A stretch of DNA of 64,000 nucleotides from a virus, in the IMG/VR virus record IMGVR_UViG_3300009503_000019, positions 32,001 to 96,000 of that record; one strand, written 5' to 3'. Below are positions 12,501 to 51,228 of this stretch, one piece after another. The position numbers were made by a program, and so were the translations under genes. Below the pieces are notes generated by a model. It ran no database searches. It saw only the letters and a program-made list of their open reading frames with translations, and was not told the DNA's origin. The first letter of the stretch is position 1; each line of letters starts with the position of its first letter.

Positions 12501-14039
12501 ATGAAAATTTTTAGACGAGACCAAAAATTAGGAACTGATATTTCACATTATCTTGACAAAATAGGTAAAGAATTTGCATACTTATCTGGATATAGTTTAA
12601 GTTTGGATGATATAACACCAATTGATTTATCTGATATAAATCGTAAAATCAGAGAAACTATGCCGAAATTATCTTCTGATAAAGAAAGGCAAAAATTTTT
12701 ATCAGAATTAGCAGATAAAATAGATCAAAGGGTAATGTCTTCTAAAAGCCGATTAGTAGAGGCAATTAAATCTCGTGCAAGAGGAAAAGTTATTGATGCT
12801 AGACAAATTATAGGTGCACCTATTGTTGCAACTGATATTAATGACAATATTATACCCGCTCCTGTGAATACCAGTTATGCAGCAGGAATGTCTTTTTCAG
12901 ATTGGTTTAAATCAATATTTGGAGGAAGAAAAGCGGCAATAGATAAAGTAACTTCAGTGAGTGAACCTGGGATGATGACTAAAGAATTATTTTCAGCAAT
13001 GTCTTCATTTCGTATAGTAGAGCATGATTGCGGAACTAAAAATGGTGTTGAAATGGATTTAAATGAAGCGGATGCGTTAGATTATTGTTTAGCAGAAAAT
13101 ATTTATTCTCATGGAAGATTAATAGCAAAAAGGAATTCACCATTAACTTCAGATGTTGTAAATGCCTTAGTTGCACACAAAATAAATAGAGTTAAAGTTA
13201 GAACACCATTAACATGTGAATCCATAGATGGAGTTTGTCAATTATGTTATGGATTGGATAAATTCGGGCAATTTCCATCAATTGGAGAATATGTTGGAAT
13301 TAAAGCTGCACAATATATAGGCGAGCCGATGACACAATTAATTCTTTCAAGAGCCCATTTTGGTGGAACCAAAGGTGCACCATCATTACAGGGATATAAA
13401 TTATTTGAAAACATATTAAATTTTTCACCTTCAATTCGTCCTCGTGCAACACTTGCTAAATTAGATGGGAGAGTTCAAAAAATTTTGATTAATCCGGACG
13501 GATCTAAAGATGTGTTAATAGATGGAGTTAGTCATCCTGTTTCAAGAGAAAGTGTGGTTACAGTTAAAACTGGAGAAATTGTAAAAAAAGGACAACAAAT
13601 TTCAGAAGGAATTCCGCATCCTGTAGATGTATATGCTACTAGAGGGATGATGGAAATGAGAAAATATTTGTCAGAGCAATTAAGAAAAATATATTATGAT
13701 AATGGACTTAAAGTGGATAAAAGAATGTTTGATGTATTGGCAAAGGCTATGACAAATACCGGAATTATTACTGATCCTGGTGATTCTGATTATATAATAG
13801 GAGATAAAGTTTCAATAGATAAAATAGAAAATAAAAATAAAGAATTGAAGCACCCAATAAAATATACACCTGTTTTTCGTGGATTGCCCCATCAAGTCTT
13901 GCTTTCAACAGATTGGTTGAATAGAATTTCAAGAAAGGATATAAAAAATACATTGGTAGAAGGAACGATTAGGCAGTGGACTGGAGATATTTCAAGGTAT
14001 CCAATACCTGCATTCGCTTATGGAGTTGAGCTAAAGTGA
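6543..14039 (+). CDS. rpoBC: DNA-directed RNA polymerase, fused beta-beta' subunits, intein-containing
   Basis: Beta motifs GDKLVGRFGEKG, NPLSVISRIN, YIFKLEH. Beta' motifs GGLFDP, PVIPPKMRP, LNRAPSLHK, NADFDGD, DCG, CQLCYG, GEPMTQ. Confidence 0.95.
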   Translation: MLKGYIEAIQNLFPIDSPNYTINVSNITPKIKEDVFIPENIKKMKLEGKILTTPIYADVTITDKNGKVISSRKQMKIAEIPALIPATNSYLGGKGKEITILGQFRFKPGIYTIIPSSGNVKTTFHLKGTSFHLTSDAGKLYFTVDSKHFAIYPILKFFGITDNDIINNFGNKFLEDNKIDISPAEMERLIKRFYKNISRDQRSEDEISINDIITYFSGNIFDPNVNKVTLGQDFSQLNKETLLAAIKKFLNVSTGVEPPDSKDLLIFKRFHNVNDFIKERIEGLKWQLKKKIQRNLELHPEEIRRVLPTGLLSKPSFELLNSSVASMEKYTNPASILSAMTKMTYLGEGGLQTEYAATPEMRNFNFSMLSTLDPIQMPESEKIGLVFHAALGANVDNQGNITKIVFNHKTGKYETISGTDFWIKNIAFPDQYENGKFKNPNSVKVMNEGKIKYVKSKDVDYILPMSTSFSMLSSLIPMISSFHPTRALIASKMIGQALALKNKEAPLVQSEIPSELLEIRKQLHPELTGALSDHLEHSNSFEELLGAKYSVVSPVNGTVTLVSKDEIVITDKKGEKYRFPLYNNFPVYPDSFIHQEPIVKVGDKVSKGMPLAKSNFTDGKTLALGTNLLTAYIPFKGYNYEDAIVISESASKKLTSERIIHEYFEIREGMILDKNKFRAIFPTLLLEENARKLDDDGVVKKGAIVKKGEILIAALMPRIITPDEYQLMRIHRKLVPKYRDASLVWNRENDGEVIEVRKTRHSISLLIKTSDPAEIGDKLVGRFGEKGLIAYIVPDSEMPRTKDGKVIDVIFNPLSVISRINTGQLVELALGKVAQKQGKPIYVPLFTKQNYVEYAKKLLKDHGLSDTETLIDPKTGKEIPNVMVGPKYIFKLEHEIKDKLDARYKGSYDMDLAPARQGEEGAKALDTYTAYGLFAHGALANLKEMATYKAEKNDAFWDAIENGFMLPAPKPTFAMDKFLAMLKSAGINVEKQGTTFRLLPLTDKDVTEIAKIKIENPRTVSGAELKPEKGGLFDPALGGLTGTRWGYIQLAEPMPNPIVEKALLQILQLSSAQFEDLIAGKTVNGIQGIEGLKQYLKNLDIDKLITQYQEMAKNARLDELDKYNRIIRFLKGLKEAKIKPESLIITKIPVIPPKMRPIYVKDDQVIYSPFNDLYKHLLMANELLERTKELPEEHRASIRLKAYEALKAIAGLTDPISPAFSKRPVQGILSMIAGPTPKLGYFQSKLARKEQDLVGRTAIIPEPDLHPDEVGLPYEIAWKIFEPFVIRKLIQQGYTKIQAVKNVEDRTPIAKAALEAVAKERLVLLNRAPSLHKYNILAFKPRLIEGNAMKIPPLVVVGFNADFDGDEQLGSILISVKKDFKLQKWYLDLIKTGARIMFDKNAKIPIKSDREYFIINLADFPRLHLVASKNHIDFYAVPDDIEVLAYDEKIHTISWQKATSWSLHHKRKICFINLKSGKQIVSDDDPRAVYGIDPVTLEYGRWRPAESIGKLVPVVKNLKLQEYVKQISTKGCPYWKLKNCLKETIELNEEFGYLLGYIIGDGWISYTKDEEKNVSIAIDPKNSELKKHLISITKKLFNKKYNLISEQKVSKSKWQSSKITINSKQLAWLISPWIGKNAENKHLPPFTLISPEEFRRGLLAGLIDSDGSISISHAKSKPQLLINLSTASIRLAQEIQLLAKSLGIPASITAYNGGMKNSKNYMINFSNYHFQKANLNIKHPEKRRKLLSISIESSPGLMSHDLVPFNSTLAEIIMKRINRNKEWSLYVIVQRYKNLNYITRSSALKILKIVDNDDPLFLRWKQIVLNDSITWDPVVSYEQTDIEEDGYDITVPGYETFMNIEGVILSNTMTIHTPVTQEALEEARRLLPSNNWVHEAKGTILLMPRHEAIIGIYRLTSEGRQLNITFNNEKEVEDAYKANKINFNDIVNVKGIGRTSFGRIIVNKVLPPELRDYKSQIDGSKLHDILMKIFRRDQKLGTDISHYLDKIGKEFAYLSGYSLSLDDITPIDLSDINRKIRETMPKLSSDKERQKFLSELADKIDQRVMSSKSRLVEAIKSRARGKVIDARQIIGAPIVATDINDNIIPAPVNTSYAAGMSFSDWFKSIFGGRKAAIDKVTSVSEPGMMTKELFSAMSSFRIVEHDCGTKNGVEMDLNEADALDYCLAENIYSHGRLIAKRNSPLTSDVVNALVAHKINRVKVRTPLTCESIDGVCQLCYGLDKFGQFPSIGEYVGIKAAQYIGEPMTQLILSRAHFGGTKGAPSLQGYKLFENILNFSPSIRPRATLAKLDGRVQKILINPDGSKDVLIDGVSHPVSRESVVTVKTGEIVKKGQQISEGIPHPVDVYATRGMMEMRKYLSEQLRKIYYDNGLKVDKRMFDVLAKAMTNTGIITDPGDSDYIIGDKVSIDKIENKNKELKHPIKYTPVFRGLPHQVLLSTDWLNRISRKDIKNTLVEGTIRQWTGDISRYPIPAFAYGVELK
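10641..12143 (+). mobile_element. Intein with LAGLIDADG homing endonuclease (501 aa) in RNAP active-site motif
   Basis: Insert between NADFDGD and TMTIHTP. Ends GYDITVPGYETFMNIEGVILSN/T. Contains LLGYIIGDG and LLAGLIDSDG motifs. Confidence 0.9.
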
Positions 14040-19841: not shown

Positions 19842-20621
19842 ATGAAATTACCATTTAGAAGATTTCTTGCTGCACTTATTGTTGATAGCCCTAATGATAT
19901 TAATTTGATCAAACGTATTCTTAGTGAATGCGGAATATTTATAACAGATAATGACGATATTTTAAGTTTCAGAGCTCGCATATTCAATAAATTCAAGCGT
20001 ATTCCTAAAAATAAGAATTTGACATTTAAGAAATTGGGTTTAACAGAATATTTAGAAAATAAAGAAAAAGGTAATATAGATTTTCTTGGGGCATATTTTG
20101 CACAAAAAGATCAATTTTTGAGAAAAGCATTTCAAGCATATATTTTTACTCATAACGAGAAATTTTTAGATTTTATTCCATCACAAAATAAAGAAACTGA
20201 AATAAATATATTTAAAAAATACTTTTTTGATATTGATAATTTATCTTTAGCAGAATGGACATATTATAAGAAATTTATTTCAGGAGCAGATGTGTTATTT
20301 TTAAATGCATTATTAAATAATGATTTGGGATTAGCCCTTCATTATCTCAAAAGGTCTATACCACCATCGGTTGAAGAGGGATTATCAAAATTATTATCAA
20401 TTTCATACTGGAGGGCAATGGAAACTGCTTATAATGCAGACCCATCTGATTTTATCAAACTATCGGACACTTTCTTAAAAATATATAAAGCATCCAAGGA
20501 CGTTTTAATTGAAAAGAAAAAAGAAACTTTACCTGATTTAATCTTTGAAGAGAAAAATCCAGAAGAAGATGAAAGGTTAGTTTCCTATGACGAACTTGGA
20601 AAACAATCAAAAACAAAGTAA
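19842..20621 (+). CDS. Hypothetical protein, possible terminase small subunit
   Basis: Helical protein directly upstream of and overlapping the TerL gene. Confidence 0.4.
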   Translation: MKLPFRRFLAALIVDSPNDINLIKRILSECGIFITDNDDILSFRARIFNKFKRIPKNKNLTFKKLGLTEYLENKEKGNIDFLGAYFAQKDQFLRKAFQAYIFTHNEKFLDFIPSQNKETEINIFKKYFFDIDNLSLAEWTYYKKFISGADVLFLNALLNNDLGLALHYLKRSIPPSVEEGLSKLLSISYWRAMETAYNADPSDFIKLSDTFLKIYKASKDVLIEKKKETLPDLIFEEKNPEEDERLVSYDELGKQSKTK

Positions 20622-22155
20622 AATTTCTCGCGCAGATATTGCTCAAAAAATTCTTTATTTGAGAGGAAACCCATTTTCTTTGAATGAACGGCCACATTTA
20701 AAATTTATTTATGATTATGCAGATAAGGTCTGGGTCATAAAAGCAGGTAGACAGGTAGAGAAATCTACTACATTGGCAGCAATTATTCTTACAGAATCGA
20801 TAATAATTCCACATTTTAATTCTTTATATGTAACTTATTCTAATAAGCAGGTTTCTGATTTCTCTTCAGATAAGATTGTTCCTATGATATTACATTCTCC
20901 ATTTGTAAGAAATTATTATCATTCCGGTGAAGTTGTGAAAAGAGTTACAGACAGAACTTTTACAAATGGCTCACATATTTTTTTGAGATCTGCATATAAT
21001 AATCCAGAAACATTAAGAGGTATTCCTGCCGATAGAGTAGTTTTCGATGAGGTTCAGAATTTGATTCCTGAAGTTATTTATGTAGCTGAGGAATCACTTG
21101 CTCATAGCAAATATCAATGGAAGATATTTTCAGGCACGGCAAAAACGAGAAATAATCTTATAGAGACTTACTGGAATCTTTCAAAGCAAATAGAGTATAT
21201 GATTAAATGTGAAGCGTGTAATAATTGGAATTATCAGGATGAAAAAATTATAGGTAAGGATTCTTATATATGTACTAAATGTGGGAAGAAAATTGATATC
21301 AGGAATGGAAGATTTGTAATGCTTAATCCATCAGGCAAATTTATGGGAATTCGTATTACTCAAGTTATGGTTCCATGGATGACTTTTGAAAATATTAAAG
21401 AAAAATTTGAGTTAAAGCCAATGTCTTATTTTTATAATGAAGTCCTCGGACTTCCTTATGAATCAATGGAACAGCCCGTTACAGAATTAGAACTTCGTCA
21501 ATGTTGTTCCGACTACCCAATGAATCTGGATTTTGTGAAATCAATTCCTTATGAATCAATTATTGTAGGTATTGACTGGGGAATGGGATTGAATTCTTCT
21601 ACTGTTGTGACAATAGGGCATCTACATGCGGGTAAAGCTCGTGTTTTGTATGCAGTTCGTATTATGGAAACAGATGCAGTAAAGCAATATGAACAGATTA
21701 AAAATTTATTATCATATTGTAAAGCGTCTATTATAATTACTGATTTTGGTGCGGGATTTGGCTTAAATGACATGTTAAGAAGAGATTTTAATATGGTTAT
21801 TCCAGTTTTATATACAGAAGGTGGTGTGGGAAAGGTTTTAAAATGGGATACAAAAGGAAAAAAATATATTGCGTTGAGAACACCATTATTGAATATTGTT
21901 TTCAGTTCTTTAAAACGGCAGGATATCATATTTCCTAAATATGAGAATATAAAAGATTTTTTACAGGATATAATGAATGTTTATGTTGATTACAGAACAG
22001 TTAAAGGAAGAGAAATTCCATATTATACTCATAATGTGCAAGAATATGATGATTTTTTACATAGCCTTACTTATTTCTTAATTGGATGCTGGTTATATTC
22101 TGGAAAACAATATTTATTTACGTCAGTTGCGGAATTTCCAAGAGAATTTGAGTAA
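20587..22155 (+). CDS. terL: Terminase large subunit (GpA-like)
   Basis: Walker A KAGRQVEKST, LRG...VVFDEVQ, Zn-finger CEAC...CTKC, nuclease VGIDWG and DDFLHS. Confidence 0.9.
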   Translation: MTNLENNQKQSKISRADIAQKILYLRGNPFSLNERPHLKFIYDYADKVWVIKAGRQVEKSTTLAAIILTESIIIPHFNSLYVTYSNKQVSDFSSDKIVPMILHSPFVRNYYHSGEVVKRVTDRTFTNGSHIFLRSAYNNPETLRGIPADRVVFDEVQNLIPEVIYVAEESLAHSKYQWKIFSGTAKTRNNLIETYWNLSKQIEYMIKCEACNNWNYQDEKIIGKDSYICTKCGKKIDIRNGRFVMLNPSGKFMGIRITQVMVPWMTFENIKEKFELKPMSYFYNEVLGLPYESMEQPVTELELRQCCSDYPMNLDFVKSIPYESIIVGIDWGMGLNSSTVVTIGHLHAGKARVLYAVRIMETDAVKQYEQIKNLLSYCKASIIITDFGAGFGLNDMLRRDFNMVIPVLYTEGGVGKVLKWDTKGKKYIALRTPLLNIVFSSLKRQDIIFPKYENIKDFLQDIMNVYVDYRTVKGREIPYYTHNVQEYDDFLHSLTYFLIGCWLYSGKQYLFTSVAEFPREFE

Positions 22156-22157
22156 AT

Positions 22158-22186
22158 TTGACATCATTTAAAAAAAATTGTATTAT
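22158..22186 (+). promoter_or_regulatory. sigma70-like promoter for head operon
   Basis: TTGACA-N17-TATTAT. Confidence 0.65.
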
Positions 22187-23293
22187 ATTCTTATGTTTAA
22201 AACTGCAATAAAACTTGATGAAGATGCGATAAGTCTTCTGGCTTCTGTAGCTGCTAATGATTATATAGAGAACAATACTCCACCTGCAGAAGCAATCGCT
22301 AAAGTAATAGTTGAACAAGGATATGAACTTACGCCAGAGCAAGTTTCGAGAATTGCTGAAAAAACTAATAACTATATATATTTGCAGTTATTAAAAACTA
22401 AAAAACAACCTCCTAAATTTCCAGTTGCAAAACGTGATGATATATTAAAAATTATTGATCAAAAAATTCATCCTCCTGAAAAAACCGCTAATCATCCTAT
22501 ATCTTCGTTATTTGATAAAGAATTGAAAGATTATTCTGATTTATTCGACAGATATATTGAACAATTATTATCCAAAACTGGTAGTAAAGAAATTGAAAAA
22601 GACAAGATTTCATCTCCATCCATTCCTTATTTTGAAGTTGTTGATGATTTGAAAAAGTTTAAATTTATTGTTGAGGATGAAATTGAAAAAATTGAATCTG
22701 GGCGATTTGAAACTTTGAATAGTATGATTAAAAAGGCGGCAAATGAAATAGTTAATAATGAATTAAAATTAACTGATTTTGTCAAATTCATATTCAAAAC
22801 TGCAAATAATGAAGTATTAGCACAGGAAATTATTTTAGAACTTGATAAAGAATTAAATAAACTCGGATTTAATAAATATGCAAATCAACCTAAATATTTA
22901 ATTAGACAATCTCCTATGCAATATACATATACTTTGACAACAATTATGGATCAGGATGCTTACAGAGATGCCCTATACAAACTTCCAACTATAACGAATG
23001 ACTGGATTATGTATCTGGAGAAAACAATGAGTGATTTGATAGAAATGAATAAAATCGCAGAATCAGTACCAGAAACAATATTAATAAAGATTTTAAATGA
23101 TGTTGTTGTTCCAGCGCATAATGCGGGATTATTTAAGAAATCTCAAGAAGCTGCAATATGGGCAAAATCTACACTTTCAAAGGAACCATGGTATAAAAGC
23201 TTTTTTAGTCTCAAGAAAGGACTGAAAGCAGTTAAGAGTCATGGATTATGGTCTTTATTTGGAACATTTCTTGAACCGGGGTTGAAGATATGA
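22178..23293 (+). CDS. Head-associated hypothetical protein with multiple K-x-A motifs
   Basis: KTAI, KTAN (twice), KAAN, KYAN, KIAE; located between TerL and the protease. Confidence 0.5.
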   Translation: MYYILMFKTAIKLDEDAISLLASVAANDYIENNTPPAEAIAKVIVEQGYELTPEQVSRIAEKTNNYIYLQLLKTKKQPPKFPVAKRDDILKIIDQKIHPPEKTANHPISSLFDKELKDYSDLFDRYIEQLLSKTGSKEIEKDKISSPSIPYFEVVDDLKKFKFIVEDEIEKIESGRFETLNSMIKKAANEIVNNELKLTDFVKFIFKTANNEVLAQEIILELDKELNKLGFNKYANQPKYLIRQSPMQYTYTLTTIMDQDAYRDALYKLPTITNDWIMYLEKTMSDLIEMNKIAESVPETILIKILNDVVVPAHNAGLFKKSQEAAIWAKSTLSKEPWYKSFFSLKKGLKAVKSHGLWSLFGTFLEPGLKI

Positions 23294-23790
23294 AGAAAAG
23301 AATTGTAACAAAAAAAGCTATGAAAAAACAGGCTGGTGCTATTGCACCAATTAAATTGGAATCATGGGCACTTCCGCTTGCAGTTACTGCGTTAGGAGCA
23401 ACTACCGTTGGATTTCCTTTACTCGTAGAGGCAATTCACCATGCAAAATTGAAGAAGCAGCAAGAACGAGCGTACCAAGTTGCTACTAAATTATATGAAC
23501 CTGAATTGAAATCATATCCGGAGCAAGAGAAAAGATTATATTTTCATACATTGAGAACATTGGCTCCTTCATTAGCAACCGATCCGATACTTGTAGGGAC
23601 TTTTTTAAAGCAAACTCTTGCTATGAGAGCAATTGATCCTAATCTCATAAAAAATTTAAGAGAAGCAACTCCCGTAGAAAGGATGGTGTATACGCATACA
23701 CCTCCAATGGCTACGGAAGCTGGAAAGATGCTTGCACAAACAATATTAGGTTTAGGCACAATTGGACCTACTGGAACTAGTGAGACATGA
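23290..23790 (+). CDS. Putative head cargo/ejection protein with hydrophobic helix
   Basis: MKKQAG followed by a hydrophobic segment WALPLAVTALGATTVGFPLLV. Confidence 0.5.
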   Translation: MKKRIVTKKAMKKQAGAIAPIKLESWALPLAVTALGATTVGFPLLVEAIHHAKLKKQQERAYQVATKLYEPELKSYPEQEKRLYFHTLRTLAPSLATDPILVGTFLKQTLAMRAIDPNLIKNLREATPVERMVYTHTPPMATEAGKMLAQTILGLGTIGPTGTSET

Positions 23791-24983
23791 TAAAAACTAT
23801 AACAATACCTTATCAAGATAAAGAAGGATTAAGAATTTCTGTTGTTAATAAAAAATGTCTCCATAAACTTGCGAGTGATTCTTTATCCCAAGAATTAGAT
23901 AAATTCTTATCTAATGAGCCTCCGCGTAAAAATGAATCTTATATTTTGATTAATGCATTAGGTGCAGGAGAAATATGGGGTCCTAATAATCGTGGTGATT
24001 ATTTTCCCGAATCTCAATTGAATGTGGAAAATCCCACATATGGATATAAAACTTTTGAAGTTTATGGAAATTTTTATCAACATCATGAAAATAAAGTTTT
24101 TGCAAATCGCATTGGTTATGTGAAAAAAGCAATATGGGTAGATGATTTAAAAAAAGTTTATCTTATTGTTTCTGCAGGAAGAATGTATGGTCCAATTTCA
24201 GAAAAAATTGTTATTGATATTGAATCTGGAAAACCAGTTGCTACATCCATGGGATGTCGTGTTCCATACGAAGTATGTTCTTTATGTTTAAAAAAAATTA
24301 CATCATTTCCAGAGAGGTGTGAACATCTTAAGTATCACATGAATGAAATCCTTGACGATGGCCAGCAAATATTTGCTATAAACTATTATCCCTTATTTTT
24401 TGATATATCTGCAGTATATTCTCCTGCAGATCAAACTTCTTATGTACTTGCAAAAGTTGCTTCTGATAAAGTTGCAGATATGGAAAAAAGGTTCCCTGCA
24501 TTGACTTTGCCTTTATCTGTGGATGAAGAAACTTATAGGAAAGCTGCTCTAATTCGTATGTTAAGACAGAGAGAACCATTTTTACATGAATTAGAATATA
24601 TGCATGATTATTTTGATCCAAGAGAATTATTATCAGCATTAACTCTTGGTGGAATTGCACTTTCTCCTTATGAATTCAATAAATATTTTGGTAAATTTCC
24701 TGGATTTACTGAAGAAATCAGTCCAAATTTACTAAGTATTATTCCACAATTAGCAGAAAAAAGATCAATATTTAAACCATATGTTCAAAAAAGAATAACA
24801 ATAATAATTCAAGGAGCTCCTCAGCCTCCTGCTGAAACTACAAGAGAGTATTTGAAATATAAATTATTCTTAAAACAAATACTACCATTTATTCTGGAGA
24901 AGTTTAGAGAATTATTATCAATAATAGATGCGGAAATGGTTGGAATTGACCCTGAATTATTAGATTATTATCTGGAGATGTAA
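23787..24983 (+). CDS. Prohead (capsid maturation) protease
   Basis: GPNNRGDYFP, FYQHHENK (His), ATSMGC (Ser), CSLC...CEH zinc finger; precedes capsid genes. Confidence 0.75.
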   Translation: MIKTITIPYQDKEGLRISVVNKKCLHKLASDSLSQELDKFLSNEPPRKNESYILINALGAGEIWGPNNRGDYFPESQLNVENPTYGYKTFEVYGNFYQHHENKVFANRIGYVKKAIWVDDLKKVYLIVSAGRMYGPISEKIVIDIESGKPVATSMGCRVPYEVCSLCLKKITSFPERCEHLKYHMNEILDDGQQIFAINYYPLFFDISAVYSPADQTSYVLAKVASDKVADMEKRFPALTLPLSVDEETYRKAALIRMLRQREPFLHELEYMHDYFDPRELLSALTLGGIALSPYEFNKYFGKFPGFTEEISPNLLSIIPQLAEKRSIFKPYVQKRITIIIQGAPQPPAETTREYLKYKLFLKQILPFILEKFRELLSIIDAEMVGIDPELLDYYLEM

Positions 24984-24986
24984 AAA

Positions 24987-25340
24987 ATGGAAGATTTAAT
25001 TTTACAAGCATTAATCAAAGAAGCAGCTGCTGAAAAATTATTAGAAGAAGCAGAATTATTAAAAATTGCAGCAGAACAATTGTCTGCTCCCCCTAAACCA
25101 GAATTACCATGGTCTTATAGACATCCTGTATTAGCGAATGCTTCAGCATTAGCGACTATGGGGCTATTGGCGGCATCTCCATTCGCAATTCGAAAATTTA
25201 TAACAAAAGAACCTGAAGAAGCATGGGGATTGCTTGCTAGTGGGCTTCTTGCAGGTGTTGTAATCGGAGGGTTACGTGGACATCTCCAATCTCGCGAATT
25301 GGAAAGATATAAAAGAATGAAAAAATTAGGAATAACATGA
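24987..25340 (+). CDS. KEAAA-leader paralog with two hydrophobic Gly-rich helices
   Basis: QALIKEAAAEKLLEEAELLKIA leader. Confidence 0.65.
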   Translation: MEDLILQALIKEAAAEKLLEEAELLKIAAEQLSAPPKPELPWSYRHPVLANASALATMGLLAASPFAIRKFITKEPEEAWGLLASGLLAGVVIGGLRGHLQSRELERYKRMKKLGIT

Positions 25341-25394
25341 GAAATTTGCTTTTTAAATTTTTTTTGATATCATTATCAAAAATGGAGGTTTGCG

Positions 25395-25880
25395 ATGTAT
25401 TACTTAGAAGACTTAATCGAAGAGGCAATGCTTAAAGAAGCCGCGGCACTAGAACTTCTAGAAGAAAGTGATTATCTATATAAACTTGCAGCGGCTGAAG
25501 CTAAAGCAGAAGAAGAGGAAGAATTAGCGGATGAAGAACCTACTGAAGAGGAACTTGAGGAAGAAGAGGAAGAAAAAAAGGCATTTGGAGGTCTAATGAG
25601 AGCTCTTAAATTACGATTACTCAGTAGATTAGCTCCGGATGTAGAAACTTTTGCAGAAGCTTTAGGTCGACGTGCCGCTAGAAGAATGGGTCCAGAACAG
25701 TTTAGGGCATTAGGGATGAGAGAAATTGGTGAAGCTTTAGGCAGACCTGCGAGAACGATAGGAAGAGAATCCTGGTGGTCTAGATACGGTGCTCCTATAG
25801 GAATTGGACTAGGTGGTGTTGGAGCGGGATTAGGTGCAGCAGCTCTTATAGATTTATTATCAAAACCACGTGGATTATAA
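25395..25880 (+). CDS. KEAAA-leader paralog, acidic spacer, Arg-rich region, Gly-zipper helix
   Basis: EAMLKEAAALELLEESDYLYKLA leader; GIGLGGVGAGLGAAA helix. Confidence 0.65.
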   Translation: MYYLEDLIEEAMLKEAAALELLEESDYLYKLAAAEAKAEEEEELADEEPTEEELEEEEEEKKAFGGLMRALKLRLLSRLAPDVETFAEALGRRAARRMGPEQFRALGMREIGEALGRPARTIGRESWWSRYGAPIGIGLGGVGAGLGAAALIDLLSKPRGL

Positions 25881-25900
25881 TATTGATAATTCATTTAAAG

Positions 25901-25929
25901 TTGACAAAAGATTTTTTTTATATTAAAAT
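25901..25929 (+). promoter_or_regulatory. sigma70-like promoter
   Basis: TTGACA-N17-TAAAAT. Confidence 0.65.
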
Positions 25930-25960
25930 TGACAACAATAAAATTTAAGGAGGTTAAAAA

Positions 25961-26794
25961 ATGGCCGGAATAGATGAGCTTATAAGGACAATTTTATCCG
26001 AAGGTGATGCTGAACTTCAGAAACTTGCTGAAGACTTAAATACAGAATTACTCGCTCAGAAAAAAAATGAAGAAAAAATTCTGAAATCTTATGAGAAGCA
26101 GGGACAAGCATTTGCAAGAGGATTTATCAATGAACTTCGTAAAAGAGGATTTGGTAAACTTGCTCAGGGAATAGTTTCTCCTGCAGTTACGCCTGAATCA
26201 AATGTTGAAAAACAACCTGAGCCTGCCGCTCCAACAGTGAATGAACCTACGGGTGAAGCTCCAGAAGATGTTGGAGAAGCAATAGAAACAATGATTGCAG
26301 CACCAGAAGCTGCATCGGATGTTGCGGGAGAGAATGTAACTGCAATAGAAGGACAGATGGAAACAACTCCTGGTGGAGAAACTCAACCAGTCGATGAGGC
26401 TGCTCTTGATGCATTAAATACTCTTATTCAAGGTGCTGTATCACAAAGTCCAGAAGCCGCATCTGCTGTTGCATCTACATCGCCATCTGCAGAACAACAG
26501 GCGCAGTCTCGAACTTCTAGCATAGAAGCTGCTCTTAGCGATCTAGCTTCTCAACTTGAAGTTACTTCTCAAGCCACTACACCGGAAGAAGTTATAGACC
26601 AAGCAATAGGAGAAGGAGAATCTGCACCTTCTTCAGAAGCTGCACCAGCCACACCAACCGGAGGATTAATAATGGATCCTACAACTGGATTATTGGTTAA
26701 CCCTGCTACTGGCGAAGCTTATGATCCACTAACTGGAATGCCTGTAGAAGCATCATTCTATGATCCTTGGTTGTACCCATTTTATGAATATTAA
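25961..26794 (+). CDS. Acidic Ala/Glu/Pro-rich scaffold/core-like protein
   Basis: Low-complexity acidic body, KLA motifs, position before capsid genes. Confidence 0.5.
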   Translation: MAGIDELIRTILSEGDAELQKLAEDLNTELLAQKKNEEKILKSYEKQGQAFARGFINELRKRGFGKLAQGIVSPAVTPESNVEKQPEPAAPTVNEPTGEAPEDVGEAIETMIAAPEAASDVAGENVTAIEGQMETTPGGETQPVDEAALDALNTLIQGAVSQSPEAASAVASTSPSAEQQAQSRTSSIEAALSDLASQLEVTSQATTPEEVIDQAIGEGESAPSSEAAPATPTGGLIMDPTTGLLVNPATGEAYDPLTGMPVEASFYDPWLYPFYEY

Positions 26795-26815
26795 TATTAA
26801 AAATGGAGGCTAGCC

Positions 26816-27061
26816 ATGTATAGAGACGAAGCACTTTTTGAGGATCCGCTGGTAAAAATAGCGGAAAAGGAATTAAAATTTCCTACAATAACAGAATTTG
26901 AAAAAATCGCCGCTGGATATCGCTTGAAGTTAAATGCTCATGATCTTAAAACAGCACAGAAAATTGCTTCTATGATAAAATTCTTTTCAAAACATCCAAA
27001 AGTTGCTACCGTAGTTCGCGATGCGGCAACTATTGGTTTGATTAAGTCTAGAAAAAAATAA
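26816..27061 (+). CDS. Small K-x-A-motif protein
   Basis: KIAE, KIAA, KIAS motifs; GGAGG RBS. Confidence 0.55.
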   Translation: MYRDEALFEDPLVKIAEKELKFPTITEFEKIAAGYRLKLNAHDLKTAQKIASMIKFFSKHPKVATVVRDAATIGLIKSRKK

Positions 27062-27079
27062 TTTATAAGGAGGTTTAAA

Positions 27080-27430
27080 ATGATGTACTACGACGACATA
27101 AACGCTCTTTTAGAAGAGGCAATGATAAAAGAAGCAGCTGCTGAAGAGCTGCTTGCTGAAAGTGAAGAGCTTTATAAATTGGCTCAACTTGGAGAACTTT
27201 TAGGGATTCCTGCTGCAGAAGTTTTATCTCGTGCAAGACAAGAGACTGTTCCAATTACGCAACTTGTAGGATATGAAACAAGACTTACTCCTAGTGTAAC
27301 ACAAAGAATGAGAGCAGCTTTAGCAAGATTAATAAGAGCTAAGGCGTTCTTACCTACTGCAGTCGGTCTAGGAGCTCTCGGACTTGGTGCTGGAGCAGGA
27401 TATTTAGCAGCTCGTCCACGTAAGAGATAA
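27080..27430 (+). CDS. KEAAA-leader paralog with C-terminal Gly-zipper helix and basic tail
   Basis: EAMIKEAAAEELLAESEELYKLA; AVGLGALGLGAGAGYL; RPRKR. Confidence 0.65.
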   Translation: MMYYDDINALLEEAMIKEAAAEELLAESEELYKLAQLGELLGIPAAEVLSRARQETVPITQLVGYETRLTPSVTQRMRAALARLIRAKAFLPTAVGLGALGLGAGAGYLAARPRKR

Positions 27431-27439
27431 AAATAATTA

Positions 27440-27847
27440 ATGCATTCTTCTATCTTCTACACTAGAGCGTTGATGAAAAGCGCAGCAGCGGAAAAACTTC
27501 ATATTGAAAGTATATTGCTTTATAAATTGGCTGGAGAACTTTATCGCGAAGAAACAGAAGCATTATTAAAATCAATAGGAATTAATCCAGAAACTGTTGT
27601 ATATCATCCTCCTCTAGGCGAACTTTATAGACAAGAAGTTGCCCCTGTAATTCAAGCACGTCCACAAGAAATATTATCTGCCGAACAAGAGATAGCTGAA
27701 CTTCCGAAAACTATCGAAACTGCTCAACAGGCAGGTAAACTTAGAAGATTAATTAAATCCAAAGCATTCTTACCGGCGGCAGTTGGTCTCGGAGCTTTAG
27801 GACTTGGTTTAGGTGGGAGCTACTTATTATCCCATAGGAGATATTAA
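27440..27847 (+). CDS. KSAAA-leader paralog with C-terminal Gly-zipper helix
   Basis: RALMKSAAAEKLHIESILLYKLA; AVGLGALGLGLGGSYL. Confidence 0.65.
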   Translation: MHSSIFYTRALMKSAAAEKLHIESILLYKLAGELYREETEALLKSIGINPETVVYHPPLGELYRQEVAPVIQARPQEILSAEQEIAELPKTIETAQQAGKLRRLIKSKAFLPAAVGLGALGLGLGGSYLLSHRRY

Positions 27848-28458
27848 TGTATTATTCTAATTTCAATACTGATATTAATTCTTTAAAAGAATCTCTTATT
27901 CTTGATGAGCTTCAAAAGGAATTGATAAAAGAAGCACAATGGGAATGGTTAAAACAGTTAGGACGTCGTGTTTCAGGCGGTTTTGCTCGATATTTTAGAG
28001 GAGCGTCGCCTGCAATTAGAACATCCGCAGAGGAAGCTGCACGACAAAGAGAATTATATGAACATTTCATAAGAGGTCTTCCTGGAGCAGAAGCAACTCG
28101 TAAAGGACGGATAGGACGTGCTTTTGAAAAAGCAAAAGGATTACTACGACGAAAACAAAAAGTTCCAGAAGCTCCGGCAGCAAAAGGACCAGGTGAACGT
28201 TATTGGGGAGAGGTTGCACCTGTGATTCAACCACGTCCTGCGGAGAGAATTGAAGAAGCATTTGAAACTGCATTAGCTAGAGAGACTGCAACTCAGCCTA
28301 CTGCAACAGAAGTGGCTCAAACTGTGACTCAAACTGCTCCAGTAGCAGAAACTACTCAAGGTCGAAGATGGATTGGTCCAGCAATTGTTGGTGGTGGATT
28401 GGCAGCAGGTGGATTATTAGGATATGGTTTAAGTAGAAGAAGGAGAGAAGAAGAATGA
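27847..28458 (+). CDS. Divergent leader paralog, Arg-rich, C-terminal Gly-zipper helix
   Basis: ELIKEAQ; IVGGGLAAGGLLGYGL; RRRR tail. Confidence 0.65.
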   Translation: MYYSNFNTDINSLKESLILDELQKELIKEAQWEWLKQLGRRVSGGFARYFRGASPAIRTSAEEAARQRELYEHFIRGLPGAEATRKGRIGRAFEKAKGLLRRKQKVPEAPAAKGPGERYWGEVAPVIQPRPAERIEEAFETALARETATQPTATEVAQTVTQTAPVAETTQGRRWIGPAIVGGGLAAGGLLGYGLSRRRREEE

Positions 28459-28730
28459 TGCCTTATAGAGATTTAATTTTTGAGGCAATGTTAAAAGAAG
28501 CGGCAGCATACGAACTTCTGAGAGAAAGTAATTATTTGTATAAACTCGCAGGTGGATTCTGGGCTAGAGCTGGCGAATACTTATCAAAAGTTCCAGAATA
28601 CTGGCAGAAATTCAGAACTTCTAAATATTTCTGGCCTACTGTTGCAGGTGTTGGGGGATTAACCGTTGGTGGACTAGGTGGTGCAGTGTATGGACTCAGT
28701 AGACCCAGGAAACGATATATTGAAGAATAA
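28455..28730 (+). CDS. KEAAA-leader paralog with C-terminal Gly-zipper helix
   Basis: EAMLKEAAAYELLRESNYLYKLA; VAGVGGLTVGGLGGAVYGL; RPRKR. Confidence 0.65.
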   Translation: MMPYRDLIFEAMLKEAAAYELLRESNYLYKLAGGFWARAGEYLSKVPEYWQKFRTSKYFWPTVAGVGGLTVGGLGGAVYGLSRPRKRYIEE

Positions 28731-28749
28731 AATTAAGGAGGTTTAAAAA

Positions 28750-29127
28750 ATGTACTACGATGAGTTTGATCTTTTGATAGAATTAGAGAAAGAAGCAGCT
28801 TTAGAAAAAATAGCACAAGGTAAACTTAGATCAGTTTTACGCAAAATTCCATTGCTTGGTAGATTAGTAAAAGCCCCGCCTCGTCCTTTAACCAGAACAG
28901 AAAGATTAGCTGCAAGATTGGGGGCATTTGCAACAAGACATCCATATCTTTCTTTAGGAATTCCAGCAGCTGGATTAGGCCTTGGTGTAGCAGGTGGATA
29001 TCTTCTTGGTAGCAGAATGGGAGGTATTGGATTAGCAGCGGGTCAAGAACCTCTTACAACTGAATTAGCAGCTGATCAGGAACCTCTTACAATAGAGGAT
29101 TTGGGATATTATCTCGGTGAGATTTAA
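28750..29127 (+). CDS. Short-leader paralog with Gly-zipper helix and 11-aa tandem duplication
   Basis: EKEAALEKIAQ; AAGLGLGVAGGYLLG; LAAGQEPLTTE/LAADQEPLTIE. Confidence 0.65.
   Translation: MYYDEFDLLIELEKEAALEKIAQGKLRSVLRKIPLLGRLVKAPPRPLTRTERLAARLGAFATRHPYLSLGIPAAGLGLGVAGGYLLGSRMGGIGLAAGQEPLTTELAADQEPLTIEDLGYYLGEI
29031..29097 (+). repeat. Two imperfect 33-bp tandem copies (in-frame)
   Basis: ATTAGCAGCGGGTCAAGAACCTCTTACAACTGA / ATTAGCAGCTGATCAGGAACCTCTTACAATAGA. Confidence 0.75.
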
Positions 29128-29588
29128 TGATAGTTCCTAAGAGAATAAATAAATATTCTCATATCGCTCTTCTCAAAAAAATTGCACAAGCAGCGGAGAC
29201 TGCAACAATAACAACAGAAAAAGCATTGAAGAAACCTACACCTCAAATATCACATCCTAAAATTTCGCAGCAAAAACCATCTGCTCAGAAGAAATTTGAA
29301 AAGATGGGTTCATTCGAGAATATTGCTATTAAATATGCTAATTTCTTGAATAAAGTTGGTTCTTCTATATTACCCACATTAAATATCAATATTGACAATG
29401 AAATGAAAAAAGAAGCGATTAAATGGTGGCCCTGGATGAAACGATTGGGATTACTTGGAGCAGGATATTATCTTGGATATAGATCCGCAAAGAGCAAATA
29501 TGGTCCGCAGCCCCCACCAGAAATGGCGAATCCCCTTGAAAGTGGTTATTTTCTTACACCTGAAATGGAATATGGAGGTATGAAATGA
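29127..29588 (+). CDS. K-x-A-motif protein with hydrophobic helix
   Basis: KKIAQ, KYAN, KKEAI; LGLLGAGYYLGY. Confidence 0.55.
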   Translation: MIVPKRINKYSHIALLKKIAQAAETATITTEKALKKPTPQISHPKISQQKPSAQKKFEKMGSFENIAIKYANFLNKVGSSILPTLNINIDNEMKKEAIKWWPWMKRLGLLGAGYYLGYRSAKSKYGPQPPPEMANPLESGYFLTPEMEYGGMK

Positions 29589-29917
29589 CAGGACCAGAAA
29601 AAATAAGAACTTTATTTAAAGTAGCTTCACAAGTGATAATTAAACTTGCAAATGAGAATAAACAATTGAAAGCTAAATTAGATTATTATGAGAAAAGGGC
29701 TAAAGCGGAGAAAATAGTGGATAAATTGATTCGTGCTGGGCATCTTTCAGAATTTCAAAAAGAAGCAAAGATAAATGAATTGATGAAAGATGATCTCAAA
29801 GCATGGGAAAAAGCAGCTTCTTTAGTATCGACAATGACTTCGTTAGGAGAAACCGTATCTCCAGTTCAATCAAATGATGCAGAAAATGAACTCATTAAAG
29901 CTTTATTGAGTTCGTAA
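29585..29917 (+). CDS. Coiled-coil scaffold-like protein
   Basis: KVAS, KLANENKQLKAKL coiled coil, directly upstream of decoration/MCP genes. Confidence 0.55.
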   Translation: MTGPEKIRTLFKVASQVIIKLANENKQLKAKLDYYEKRAKAEKIVDKLIRAGHLSEFQKEAKINELMKDDLKAWEKAASLVSTMTSLGETVSPVQSNDAENELIKALLSS

Positions 29918-29938: not shown

Positions 29939-30355
29939 ATGGCGCTGACAGAACTAAAACTGAGACTTTTAAAAGCAGCAATAGGTGTTACCGAAGAAAA
30001 GGTGAGTTTAAGTACAGCATTTAATGAAGGTATGGCTCTGGTATATGATGCAACTGCCGGAGCCTGGAAAGCAGGTAATGCAACTGATGGAAAGGTTCCA
30101 CTCAGAGTAGTCTATTTTGGCTATGCATCAGATCGACCGGATGTTATGCAACTCGGGCAGTGTAAAACAATTGCCGCTCCATGCGTGATAACCGTTAGTG
30201 TAGACAACGTTATAACTGCAACTGGTAGAATTCCAACTGCAGGAAGTGGAATTATCATAACTGGTGGTAAATATGCAGCTGTGAGTGGTACTGAAGTTCC
30301 ATGTGGAATGTGCCTCGGCGTGAAAGGCGATGAATACGAGATTGAACTCTATTAA
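29939..30355 (+). CDS. Probable head decoration/cement protein
   Basis: Beta-rich 138-aa protein immediately upstream of MCP. Confidence 0.55.
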   Translation: MALTELKLRLLKAAIGVTEEKVSLSTAFNEGMALVYDATAGAWKAGNATDGKVPLRVVYFGYASDRPDVMQLGQCKTIAAPCVITVSVDNVITATGRIPTAGSGIIITGGKYAAVSGTEVPCGMCLGVKGDEYEIELY

Positions 30356-30367
30356 GGAGGTGAAACA

Positions 30368-31339
30368 ATGTACGGAAATACAATGAGATTATTCTTAAAT
30401 AAATTAGACACAGGTTTATCAAAAGAGGCACAAGGAGCCCTTGCAACAGTAATAAGAAGAAAAGTTCGTGAAAGAGGTATATCTCCAAGAGTTATTCCTT
30501 TTGAAACAATAAGTCCAGGAGATGTGAGAATTCAGAGAGATCTTGATAGAGATATTATCTATTTTGTTGGTGAAAAAGAAGCTGATTCTTATGCAATGGT
30601 TCTTACTCTTGAAGGTAAACCCGGTATAATTGAGCCCAGAGGTACAAGATTTAGGGTTGATTTCTATCAGTTTGCAACTCCGAAAGTCAAAAAGCATGAA
30701 ATCAATCTTCTTTCCTATACATATTCATTTGAAAAATGGTTAGAAGAAAATGTTGTATATGATATTGAAGAAGCTTACGATACCAAATTCTTAACACTTG
30801 CTTTGAGATCGGCTGAAACGACAAATCAGATTGTTCAAACTACAAGTGCAAAATTTACACTTAATGATTTAATTGATCTTCAAAAAGTATTAACTCAAAC
30901 AAAGAAGGCTTCTGATGCTAATATTGTAGTTATGAATAAAACTACATTCCTTGAGTTCTTATCACAGGGTACAACAGTATTCGGTGATGTTCTGCAGAAG
31001 GAAATTGTAATCAATGGATACAAATATCAAACTCTACTTGATACTGCATTTGTCGTAACTGAAAATAATGTTGTCGTTCCTCCAGGAATAGTTTATGCAT
31101 TTGCAAAACCTCAGTATCTTGGTGTAGTTCCAGTTCTTCATGATATAAAATTTTTCATCAAGAAAGAAGGACCAGAAGTTGAATGGAATACATGGTCAAT
31201 ACTCGGAATGAACATTGCTAATGCTTATGGGGTTGCGGTTTTAATTTATGGCTCTAAAGGTTGGTCTGTTAAAAATGGTAAAATCACATATACAGTAGAC
31301 ACTGTTGATTACACCGAACCACCATATCCTGAGAAGTAA
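30368..31339 (+). CDS. Major capsid protein (probable HK97 fold)
   Basis: Position after protease, scaffold and decoration genes; strong RBS; followed by terminator; EEAYDTKFL..., GxVPVLHDIKFF pattern. Confidence 0.7.
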   Translation: MYGNTMRLFLNKLDTGLSKEAQGALATVIRRKVRERGISPRVIPFETISPGDVRIQRDLDRDIIYFVGEKEADSYAMVLTLEGKPGIIEPRGTRFRVDFYQFATPKVKKHEINLLSYTYSFEKWLEENVVYDIEEAYDTKFLTLALRSAETTNQIVQTTSAKFTLNDLIDLQKVLTQTKKASDANIVVMNKTTFLEFLSQGTTVFGDVLQKEIVINGYKYQTLLDTAFVVTENNVVVPPGIVYAFAKPQYLGVVPVLHDIKFFIKKEGPEVEWNTWSILGMNIANAYGVAVLIYGSKGWSVKNGKITYTVDTVDYTEPPYPEK

Positions 31340-31841: not shown

Positions 31842-32111
31842 ATGTATAATTATTTTCTAGCACAAGCTTTAATTAAAGAAGCAACGGCGTTAGAGCTTTT
31901 AAGGGAAGCGCGATTATTAAAATTAGCTGCTCGTGAAAGTTCTCTAACTCCTGAAGAAAAACTTCGTCTAATAGGACGTGGTGCATTATATGGAGGCCTA
32001 GTAGGACTTCCAGTTGCAATATCTGGCATAGTAGCTAAAGATCCAGAACTTGCAGCAATACCTATAGGAACTGCAATTTTAGGTTCTATTGTATCAAGAT
32101 CACTATTTTGA
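31842..32111 (+). CDS. KEATA-leader paralog with two hydrophobic helices
   Basis: QALIKEATALELLREARLLKLA leader. Confidence 0.65.
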   Translation: MYNYFLAQALIKEATALELLREARLLKLAARESSLTPEEKLRLIGRGALYGGLVGLPVAISGIVAKDPELAAIPIGTAILGSIVSRSLF

Positions 32112-51125: not shown

Positions 51126-51143
51126 TCTATAGTCCTTTCATTG

Positions 51144-51228
51144 TGCCCGAGGCCGGACTTGAACCGACACGGGAGGCATCTCCCAGAGGATTTTAAGTCC
51201 TCTGTGTCTTCCATTCCACCACTCGGGC
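51144..51228 (-). tRNA. trnL: tRNA-Leu(UAA), CCA not encoded
   Basis: Acceptor GCCCGAG/CTCGGGC, anticodon arm GAGGA-CTTAAAA-TCCTC, long variable arm, GTTCAAGTCC T-loop. Confidence 0.92.

What the first reader, a model, noticed from the sequence alone, without database searches (positions are those of the whole stretch)
24987..29127. Array of paralogous small proteins sharing a conserved N-terminal leader and variable cargo, directly behind the prohead protease
Seen: consensus (E/Q/R)A(M/L)(L/I/M)K(E/S)A(A/T)AxxL(L)xE(S/A)xxL(Y)K(L/I)A in ORFs 24987, 25395, 27080, 27440, 28455 and also 31842; shortened forms in 27847 and 28750. Downstream parts are unrelated or mosaic. Established: T4 internal proteins use a shared N-terminal capsid-targeting sequence that the prohead protease removes. 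Inference: a leader-directed capsid-loading system delivering a cocktail of effector or ejection peptides into the host.
Basis: partly seen in the sequence, partly recalled or inferred. Interest (0 to 1): 0.82.

Follow-up and report, generated by a model that had tools for sequence, protein, structure and literature searches.

The report
Leader-tagged small head proteins behind protease
An uncultured hot-spring phage carries, next to its capsid-maturation protease, a row of small genes that all begin with the same 30-residue tag built from two copies of a short motif (K-x-A) that also marks the capsid, scaffold and protease proteins of a large group of related phages. This is most likely a cut-and-load signal like the one phage T4 uses for its internal head proteins, here written in a different code and not yet shown by experiment.

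Summary
Six ORFs (24987, 25395, 27080, 27440, 28455, 31842) share a roughly 30-aa N-terminal leader. In leave-one-out HMM tests each member scores E 1e-6 to 7e-16, and the best non-member scores E 0.03 or worse. ORFs 27847 and 28750 keep only the core motif.

The upstream gene is a prohead protease by fold (Z 9.4 to T4 gp21 and to a herpesvirus assemblin).

The new point is that the leader is two tandem copies of a clade-wide motif, φ-x-K-x-A-(S/A/G/Q). In 173 non-redundant proteins encoded between protease and capsid gene in about 60 distant relatives, its sub-patterns are the most enriched three-residue patterns. EK.A occurs 254 times against 29 expected. The motif also sits near the N-terminus of the capsid protein, in the scaffold, and at both ends of the protease domain.

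The best reading is a protease recognition site inside a targeting propeptide, a functional analogue of the T4 capsid-targeting sequence without sequence homology to it.

Most members end in a Gly-rich hydrophobic segment followed by a basic tail. So the "effector cocktail" idea is unsupported. Packaging, cleavage and injection are all untested.

This same stretch was already noted from another window of this genome.

The parts
23290..23790 (+). 166-aa protein with N-proximal MKKQAG (aa 11-16) followed by a hydrophobic Gly/Ala-rich segment (aa 28-46). It has the same build as the array members and sits just upstream of the protease.
23787..24983 (+). Prohead maturation protease. The catalytic domain spans about aa 39-226 and has the T4 gp21/herpes assemblin fold. 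The motif LHKLAS lies at aa 25-30, and LAKVAS at aa 221-226 closes the domain. A disordered linker and a helical C-terminal domain follow.
   Evidence: AF2 model; VIA Z 9.4 to 5jbl and 1vzv; weak PHROG head-maturation-protease hit; invariant H100, S154, K223, A225
24987..25340 (+). Leader paralog 1 (117 aa). The leader is aa 1-28 (nt 24987-25070). The cargo has two hydrophobic segments.
25395..25880 (+). Leader paralog 2 (161 aa). The leader is aa 1-32. An acidic E-rich run follows, then a C-terminal Gly-rich hydrophobic segment.
25961..26794 (+). 277-aa very acidic protein (net charge -33) with low-complexity sequence. It has no full leader. It is conserved in the close relative L084 (69% identity). 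Probably a core or scaffold-associated protein.
26816..27061 (+). 81-aa protein with FEKIAA at aa 28-33 and a basic remainder. It has no full leader. It is 80% identical to its L084 counterpart.
27080..27430 (+). Leader paralog 3 (116 aa). The leader is aa 1-35 with net charge -8. The cargo has net charge +8 and ends GLGALGLGAGAGYLAARPRKR.
27440..27847 (+). Leader paralog 4 (135 aa), with the most divergent leader. Its C-terminal 34 aa form a mosaic with 27080, and the DNA there is 80% identical.
   Evidence: (D11)
27847..28458 (+). 203-aa member with only the core motif (LIKEAQ at aa 26-31), a C-terminal Gly-rich segment and an RRRR tail.
   Evidence: orthologs P0122, P0128
28455..28730 (+). 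Leader paralog 5 (91 aa). The two sites are K14-E-A16 and K30-L-A32. The leader is modelled as a confident helix (pLDDT 79-92).
28750..29127 (+). 125-aa member with a short leader (LEKEAA at aa 12, LEKIAQ at aa 18) and a Gly-rich hydrophobic segment at aa 69-87.
29127..29588 (+). 153-aa protein with LKKIAQ at aa 16-21 and a Gly-rich segment near aa 105-120. An ortholog is present in L084.
29585..29917 (+). 110-aa coiled-coil protein, the likely scaffold. LFKVAS lies at aa 10-15. It occupies the position of the multi-motif scaffold-like genes of relatives.
30368..31339 (+). HK97-fold major capsid protein with LSKEAQ at aa 17-22. The predicted maturation cut is A21|Q22.
31842..32111 (+). Leader paralog 6 (89 aa), displaced downstream of the capsid gene. 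The cargo has two hydrophobic segments.

Best explanation
The array encodes small prohead-core or internal head proteins. Each begins with an acidic, helical propeptide of about 30 aa that holds two copies of the recognition motif of this phage's own maturation protease, φ-x-K-x-A followed by S/A/G/Q.

Proposed mechanism (inferred, by analogy with the T4 capsid-targeting sequence):
1. The leader brings the protein into the assembling prohead core, next to scaffold and protease.
2. The gp21/assemblin-type protease then cuts at the K-x-A sites, probably after the Ala as in herpesvirus A|S sites, and removes the leader.
3. The same protease trims the capsid protein N-terminus, degrades the scaffold and processes itself.
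4. What remains is a set of small, mostly basic peptides with a marginally hydrophobic Gly-zipper-like segment. They probably stay in the head with the DNA. They may act on the host membrane after ejection, which is the weakest step.

Shown here: the family, the motif, its clade-wide enrichment and N-terminal bias, the protease fold, and the turnover of the array.

Inferred: cleavage, the scissile bond, targeting, packaging and fate after ejection.
For: (1) Six paralogs share the leader far beyond chance. K-x-A is invariant at both sites in 17 leader proteins from this phage and its relatives.

(2) Among orthologs the leader is 63-100% identical and the rest 18-85%. The leader is the better conserved part in 9 of 10 pairs.

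(3) The motif [LIVMF]xKxA[ASG] occurs 24 times in 20.3k aa of the window, and 17 of these are in the head module. In the whole genome 19 of 31 occurrences start within the first 35 residues (p=1.8e-7).

(4) In relatives whose protease is only 29-46% identical:
- Proteins encoded between protease and capsid gene hold 239 motifs against 21.8 in shuffles.
- The proteases hold 130 against 12.8.
- An unbiased scan of all three-residue patterns ranks EK.A (254 vs 28.9), K.AS (188 vs 20.6) and L.K.A (200 vs 24.3) first.
- Scaffold-position genes carry 3-5 copies.
- Capsid proteins keep x-K-x-A at about residues 20-30.

(5) The protease model matches T4 gp21 (Z 9.4, rmsd 3.4, 133 aa) and VZV protease (Z 9.4), followed by other assemblins. 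LAKVA|S at aa 221-226 closes the protease domain before a disordered linker. This resembles the herpes release site YLQA-T(226), which frees the protease from the scaffold (PMC4498786).

(6) T4 precedent: 10-19-residue propeptides target the internal proteins to the core and are removed by gp21. The internal-protein genes vary between relatives (PMC9026906).

(7) A relative with an 82-83% identical protease and an 86% identical capsid protein has a different set of leader genes.

(8) Co-folding of protease aa 30-235 with the leader gave weak support only. The score was 0.42 and the best of 3 controls 0.00. That mark was reached by 58 of 80 solved complexes and 2 of 110 mismatched pairs, but at 0.60 or under by only 7 of the 80 and by both mismatches. 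The runs agree in at least 0% of contacts, and the partner's pLDDT is at least 44.
Against: - No experimental datum exists for this phage or for any relative that shows cleavage at K-x-A. The only virion proteome of a relative (Arash) lists 116 proteins, including metabolic enzymes, and reports no N-termini. It is therefore uninformative.
- The leader is predicted as a stable helix, whereas proteases bind extended substrates.
- The motif could be a shared docking element rather than a cut site.
- Hydrophobic cargo could instead send these proteins to the host membrane during infection.
- Phage G has the motif only in its protease, and cluster C mycobacteriophages lack it. The code is therefore not universal for this protease family.
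- The co-fold result is weak, and its three runs disagree.
Confidence: 0.6

Rival explanations
1. Membrane tethers for prohead assembly. The proteins sit in the host inner membrane through their Gly-rich hydrophobic segments. The cytoplasmic leader binds the prohead core. Cleavage at K-x-A then releases the matured prohead from the membrane. The cargo is never packaged.
For: - One or two hydrophobic segments per protein, with basic flanks.
- Several members have two segments, which fits a hairpin with both ends in the cytoplasm.
- T4 proheads assemble on the membrane and detach after gp21 cleavage (PMC9026906).
Against: - Hydrophobicity is marginal. The 19-residue Kyte-Doolittle maxima are 1.26-1.76, mostly below the usual 1.6 threshold.
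- At least one leader protein elsewhere (P0147) has a soluble cargo.
- A need for 6-8 different tethers is hard to explain.
Confidence: 0.15
2. Expendable core or scaffold accessories. The proteins co-assemble with the scaffold through the leader and the self-associating Gly-rich segments. They are then degraded and expelled before DNA packaging, and have no role after assembly.
For: - They lie between the protease and the scaffold or capsid genes.
- The motif is shared with scaffold-position proteins, which carry several copies.
- In T4 the scaffold and gp68 are largely removed.
Against: - The sites are confined to the N-terminal 35 residues rather than spread along the chain. This would leave the cargo intact, as with T4 internal proteins.
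- Rapid cargo turnover between close relatives is unusual for structural scaffolds.
Confidence: 0.15
3. Not head-related. The array is a family of small membrane proteins (holin/antiholin-like, exclusion proteins or bacteriocin-like peptides with a shared export leader) that merely lies inside the head operon.
For: - Tandem small genes with a conserved N-terminal leader and variable Gly-rich hydrophobic cores resemble bacteriocin or RiPP precursor arrays.
- No family in Pfam, PHROGs or NCBIfam matches them.
Against: - The leader motif is shared with the capsid protein, scaffold and protease across a large clade.
- Only one of the six leaders is followed by Gly-Gly.
- No C39 peptidase, ABC exporter or modification enzyme lies nearby. 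The neighbours are terminase, protease, scaffold and capsid genes.
- The leader is acidic and has no hydrophobic core, so it is not a Sec signal.
Confidence: 0.07

Closest known systems
Phage T4 internal proteins IPI/IPII/IPIII with their capsid-targeting sequence (CTS), processed by prohead protease gp21
   Same: - Small, mostly basic proteins share a short N-terminal propeptide but have dissimilar mature parts.
- The propeptide ends in the consensus site that the phage's own protease also uses on the capsid protein, the scaffold and itself.
- The genes are variable between related phages.
- The protease has the same fold.
   Different: - There is no sequence similarity.
- The leader is about 30 aa with two sites, against 10-19 aa in T4.
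- The motif is φ-x-K-x-A-(S/A/G) instead of L/I-x-E.
- The genes sit inside the head operon between protease and scaffold.
- The cargos share a Gly-rich hydrophobic segment, which T4 internal proteins lack.
- Nothing has been shown experimentally here.
Herpesvirus assemblin (pUL26) release and maturation sites
   Same: - The protease fold is shared.
- The architecture is a protease domain followed by a linker and a helical, scaffold-like C-terminal part.
- A conserved site with Ala then Ser lies exactly at the end of the protease domain. This is LAKVA-S226 here and YLQA-T226 in pseudorabies virus.
   Different: - The register of the upstream specificity residues differs. Lys lies two residues and a hydrophobic residue four residues upstream of the Ala here.
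- Herpesviruses have no array of leader-tagged small proteins.
- The scissile bond here is inferred, not shown.
Propeptide-bearing head and ejection proteins of giant phages (phiKZ, 201phi2-1, SPN3US; protease gp175/gp245, site S/A/G-x-E)
   Same: Many head proteins, including paralog families, carry N-terminal propeptides with a common protease motif. The protease also trims itself.
   Different: - The motif is different.
- Propeptides there are mostly long (111-254 aa).
- The substrates are large proteins rather than peptides of 90-200 aa with a shared leader.

Membership tests
T4-type internal protein / capsid-targeting-sequence system | Several otherwise dissimilar small proteins share one N-terminal propeptide | tested here: met
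   Six paralogs. Leave-one-out E 1e-6 to 7e-16. Identity 52% in the leader against 22% in the rest.
T4-type internal protein / capsid-targeting-sequence system | The propeptide ends in the motif that also marks the capsid protein, the scaffold and the protease of the same phage | tested here: met
   φxKxA(S/A/G/Q) lies in the capsid protein at aa 17-22, the scaffold at aa 10-15 and the protease at aa 25-30 and 221-226. It is enriched clade-wide.
T4-type internal protein / capsid-targeting-sequence system | The propeptide is removed by the prohead protease | not testable with these tools
   Only a weak co-fold result is available: 0.42 against 0.00 for the best control, with the runs disagreeing.
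T4-type internal protein / capsid-targeting-sequence system | Mature proteins are packaged in the head and ejected into the host | not testable with these tools
   No virion proteome exists for this phage. The Arash proteome is not discriminating.
T4-type internal protein / capsid-targeting-sequence system | Sequence homology to T4 IPI-III or their leader, and an L/I-x-E cleavage site | tested here: not met
   No PHROG, Pfam or NCBIfam hit. The motif is K-x-A, not x-E.
T4-type internal protein / capsid-targeting-sequence system | Gene content of the locus varies between close relatives | tested here: met
   L084 has an 83% identical protease and an 86% identical capsid protein but a different set of leader genes.
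gp21/assemblin-fold capsid maturation protease (for 23787-24983) | Herpesvirus-protease fold | tested here: met
   Z 9.4 to 5jbl_A (133 aa aligned, rmsd 3.4) and Z 9.4 to 1vzv, with many assemblins below. The Foldseek E-values were weak, 0.03-0.1.
gp21/assemblin-fold capsid maturation protease (for 23787-24983) | Catalytic Ser and His conserved | tested here: inconclusive
   H100 and S154 are invariant in 15 homologs. Their equivalence to the gp21 catalytic residues was not mapped residue by residue.
Bacteriocin / RiPP precursor arrays with a shared export leader | Leader ending in Gly-Gly (or another known site), with a dedicated peptidase/exporter or modification enzyme nearby | tested here: not met
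   Only 28455 has GG after K-L-A. The neighbours are terminase, protease, scaffold and capsid genes.
Sec/Tat signal peptide | Basic n-region, hydrophobic h-region and A-x-A c-region at the N-terminus | tested here: not met
   Most leaders are acidic (net charge from -8 to +2 across the six), amphipathic and helical, without a hydrophobic core.
Pfam glycine-zipper families (for the C-terminal segment) | Match to a curated Gly-zipper profile | tested here: not met
   No such hit at E up to 0.1 for four of the array proteins. The resemblance is compositional only.

The most novel reading that the evidence does not exclude
A large, mostly uncultured clade of roughly 150-215-kb phages (including Salmonella phage Arash and Vibrio phage D69) uses a previously undescribed maturation code, φ-x-K-x-A|S, read by a gp21/assemblin-type protease. 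On top of it, this hot-spring lineage has evolved a modular two-site leader that works as an exchangeable loading tag. The tag fills the capsid with a changing set of glycine-zipper peptides that are injected and act on the host membrane.
Probability: 0.25. Interest if true: 0.72.

Novelty: new variant of a known kind. Interest (0 to 1): 0.58.

Why it matters
If the K-x-A motif is the cut site, it gives a readable maturation code for a big, barely annotated phage clade whose protease has no Pfam or NCBIfam family.
- Protease substrates and mature N-termini could then be predicted from sequence alone.
- It would extend the T4 capsid-targeting idea to an unrelated leader. This would be a second natural example of a portable tag for loading proteins into capsids, here in a thermophilic setting, which is useful for protein-packaging tools.
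- It would link phage and herpesvirus proteases through a shared Ala|Ser-type specificity.
- The Gly-rich cargo class would be a new kind of internal head peptide.

Tried and rejected
The contigs of the closest protease homologs P0002 and P0003 could therefore not be fetched directly. One close relative (L084) was obtained through the metagenome scan instead.
- The search for related loci in IMG/VR found no relatives with either the single protease or the leader alignment A4. Alignment A3 was too variable to search with.
- A PDB sequence search with the protease profile found nothing meaningful.
- The ESM Atlas look-up of 27080 gave only low-score rows.
- The exhaustive profile search with the leader found 27 proteins. 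About 17 are small N-terminal leader proteins. The roughly 10 long ones are Sel1/TPR-type repeat proteins whose consensus (AARLYKLAADQG) mimics the second half of the leader. These were rejected as chance or structural mimicry.
- The Arash virion proteome was rejected as evidence because it lists 116 proteins, including nucleotide-metabolism enzymes.
- The phage G capsid structure paper (PMC7316594) is not held.
- Phage G has the motif only in its protease, and mycobacteriophage I3 has almost none. The code does not extend to them.
- The signal-peptide and bacteriocin-leader readings were considered and rejected (see membership tests).

Full report
CONTEXT

The window is bases 32001-96000 of a 121-kb IMG/VR viral contig estimated at about 66% complete. 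GC content is about 30%. Earlier notes of this scan call it an uncultured hot-spring phage.

The region of interest is a head-morphogenesis operon on the + strand:
- large terminase, 20587-22155 (phrog_675, E 1e-73)
- two unassigned genes, 22178-23293 and 23290-23790
- a 398-aa gene, 23787-24983
- eleven small genes, 24987-29917
- a decoration-like gene, 29939-30355
- the HK97-fold major capsid protein, 30368-31339 (phrog_2522 E 5e-12; NCBIfam capsid_Caudo_2 E 1e-14)

. Most of the small genes have GGAGG ribosome sites.

IS THE GENE IN FRONT A PROHEAD PROTEASE?

Sequence evidence alone is thin. There is a PHROG 'head maturation protease' hit at E 0.003, tblastn hits to Rhodococcus phage E3 'prohead protease' and phage G gp19, and no Pfam or NCBIfam family.

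An AlphaFold model built on 15 homologs has mean pLDDT 70, with the core at 77-90. It matches T4 gp21 (5jbl, Z 9.4, 133 residues, rmsd 3.4) and varicella-zoster protease (Z 9.4), followed by a run of herpesvirus assemblins. Foldseek alone gave only E 0.03-0.1.

H100, S154 and a CxxC…CxH cluster are invariant in the family. With the gene context added, I accept the protease assignment.

THE OBSERVATION

- Leave-one-out profile searches against all 178 ORFs of the genome recover each omitted member at E 1e-6 to 7e-16. The best non-member is at E 0.03 or worse.
- Leader identity among paralogs averages 52%, against 22% for the remainder.
- The leader DNA is only 60-77% identical. The similarity is therefore maintained by selection on the peptide rather than by recent gene conversion.
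- ORFs 27847 and 28750 keep only the core motif.

Examples are GLGALGLGAGAGYLAARPRKR and GGGLAAGGLLGYGLSRRRR. Two others (24987, 31842) carry two hydrophobic segments. The leaders are mostly acidic and the remainders mostly basic. The leader of 28455 is modelled as a confident helix, and the rest of that protein has low confidence.

WHAT THE LEADER IS MADE OF

Across 17 leader proteins from this phage and its relatives, the invariant positions are two K-x-A triplets, 16 residues apart in 28455, each preceded by a hydrophobic residue two positions earlier.

The pattern [LIVMF]xKxA[ASG] occurs 24 times in the window's 20.3k residues, and 17 of those are in the head module. With Q allowed at the last position it also appears at:
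- residues 17-22 of the capsid protein
- residues 10-15 of the scaffold-like protein 29585
- residues 25-30 and 221-226 of the protease
- residues 11-16 of 23290
- the N-terminal 30 residues of several other genes

. In the genome, 19 of 31 strict occurrences start within the first 35 residues (p=1.8e-7).

THE MOTIF IS CLADE-WIDE

The protease family has at least 581 loci in IMG/VR. Cultured members include Salmonella phage Arash and Vibrio phages D69, D148 and D181.

In 61 loci whose protease is only 29-46% identical to the window's:

| Protein set | Motifs observed | Expected from shuffles |
|---|---|---|
| Encoded between protease and capsid gene | 239 | 21.8 |
| Proteases | 130 | 12.8 |
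| Other flanking proteins | 322 | 75.9 |

. The local logo is (E/D)(E/D)-L-E-K-x-A-S.

To avoid cherry-picking I enumerated all three-residue patterns in six spacing forms, on 173 non-redundant 'between' proteins, excluding the window and its close relative. The top three are EK.A (254 vs 28.9, z 42), K.AS (188 vs 20.6) and L.K.A (200 vs 24.3).

Genes in the scaffold position carry three to five copies. Capsid proteins keep an x-K-x-A at about residues 20-30 inside a conserved N-terminal block. In the protease the second copy closes the catalytic domain (…SYVLAKVA-S226) just before a disordered linker and a helical C-terminal domain.

This distribution is the one known for the cleavage motifs of T4 gp21 and the phiKZ/SPN3US proteases: the capsid N-terminus, multiple scaffold sites, both ends of the protease and the N-terminal propeptides of small head proteins. 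The placement at the end of the protease domain parallels the herpesvirus release site YLQA-T226, which frees assemblin from the scaffold. I therefore read the motif as the protease recognition site, probably cut after the Ala. The scissile bond is an inference.

Limits of the code: phage G carries the motif only in its protease, and mycobacteriophage I3 almost lacks it.

HOW WIDESPREAD IS THE FULL LEADER?

A word-indexed search of 5.8 billion proteins with the family profile found 15 proteins. An exhaustive HMMER search of 1.84 billion cluster representatives with the leader alone found 27. About 17 are small proteins with the leader at residue 1. The others are Sel1-type repeat proteins that mimic its second half.

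The full leader is therefore confined to a small phage group, while its K-x-A core is shared by a large clade. Other lineages have their own small paralog sets with a common N-terminal LEKYAS-type start (L033, L069).

TURNOVER

A metagenomic relative (L084) has an 83% identical protease and an 86% identical capsid protein. It keeps orthologs of 25961, 26816, 28750, 29127 and the scaffold. Its leader genes differ in number and cargo: 4473, 4792, 6219, 6530 and 10112.

Among ortholog pairs the leader is 63-100% identical and the remainder 18-85%. This is the behaviour described for the T4 internal-protein genes.

MECHANISM AND RIVALS

Most likely reading (0.6): a two-site propeptide targets small proteins to the prohead core and is removed by the protease. 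The leaderless, basic, Gly-rich peptides remain in the head. Whether they are then injected and act on the host membrane is open.

The co-fold of the protease domain with the leader gave weak support only. The score was 0.42 and the best control 0.00. That mark was reached by 58 of 80 solved complexes and 2 of 110 mismatches, but at 0.60 or under by only 7 of the 80 and by both mismatches. The runs agree in at least 0% of contacts, and the partner's pLDDT is at least 44.

Rivals:
- membrane tethers that are cut to release the prohead (0.15)
- expendable scaffold accessories (0.15)
- unrelated small membrane or bacteriocin-like proteins (0.07)

The last is disfavoured by the motif sharing with capsid, scaffold and protease, and by the absence of export machinery.

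COMPARISON AND NOVELTY

The system works like the T4 CTS and internal-protein system and shares its protease fold. It is not a member by sequence: the leader, the motif (K-x-A rather than L/I-x-E) and the cargo class all differ.

Among the papers I searched I found none that describes this motif or these proteins. That is not proof of absence.

I class it as a new variant of a known kind. The same stretch was already noted from another window of this genome (e1-5941752), and I saw only that note's title.

Noticed in passing
window 6543-14039 (+): A 2498-aa ORF that fuses multisubunit RNA-polymerase beta/beta'-like regions (phrog_25354, 24349, 3295, 3015, 2987). It has an endonuclease/terminase-nuclease-like insert at about aa 1543-1731. 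In the distant relative Arash, RNAP subunits are the top virion mass-spectrometry hits, so the clade may package an RNA polymerase.
   Followed up: no
window 23787-24983, aa 164-180: An invariant CxxC…CxH cluster (C164, C167, C178, H180) lies inside the protease domain in all 15 aligned homologs. It is a possible zinc site, which I do not recall for T4 gp21.
   Followed up: no
window 29585-29917; L001, L002, L004, L005, L007, L009, L015: Across the clade, the genes just upstream of the decoration and capsid genes end in a conserved C-terminal D-P-L-T-x-F-L-L-like motif. This is possibly the capsid-binding tail of the scaffold. The window's copy ends …ENELIKALLSS.
   Followed up: partly
P0139, P0148 and other long hits: The second half of the leader (E…LYKLAA) mimics the Sel1-repeat consensus AARLYKLAADQG. 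This produces false hits in profile searches.
   Followed up: yes
L033 7871-9098; L069 12445-13079: Other lineages of the clade have their own adjacent paralog pairs that share an N-terminal LEKYAS…LL.AEYG leader. Leader-sharing small head proteins are therefore not unique to this phage.
   Followed up: partly
L061, L062, L064 protease genes; L001 6738-8213; L002 6605-8020: In several relatives the protease protein itself carries a C-terminal Gly/Ala-rich hydrophobic segment. The window's shorter protease lacks it.
   Followed up: no
window 51143-51228 (-): A single tRNA-Leu (anticodon TAA) lies in the phage genome.
   Followed up: no
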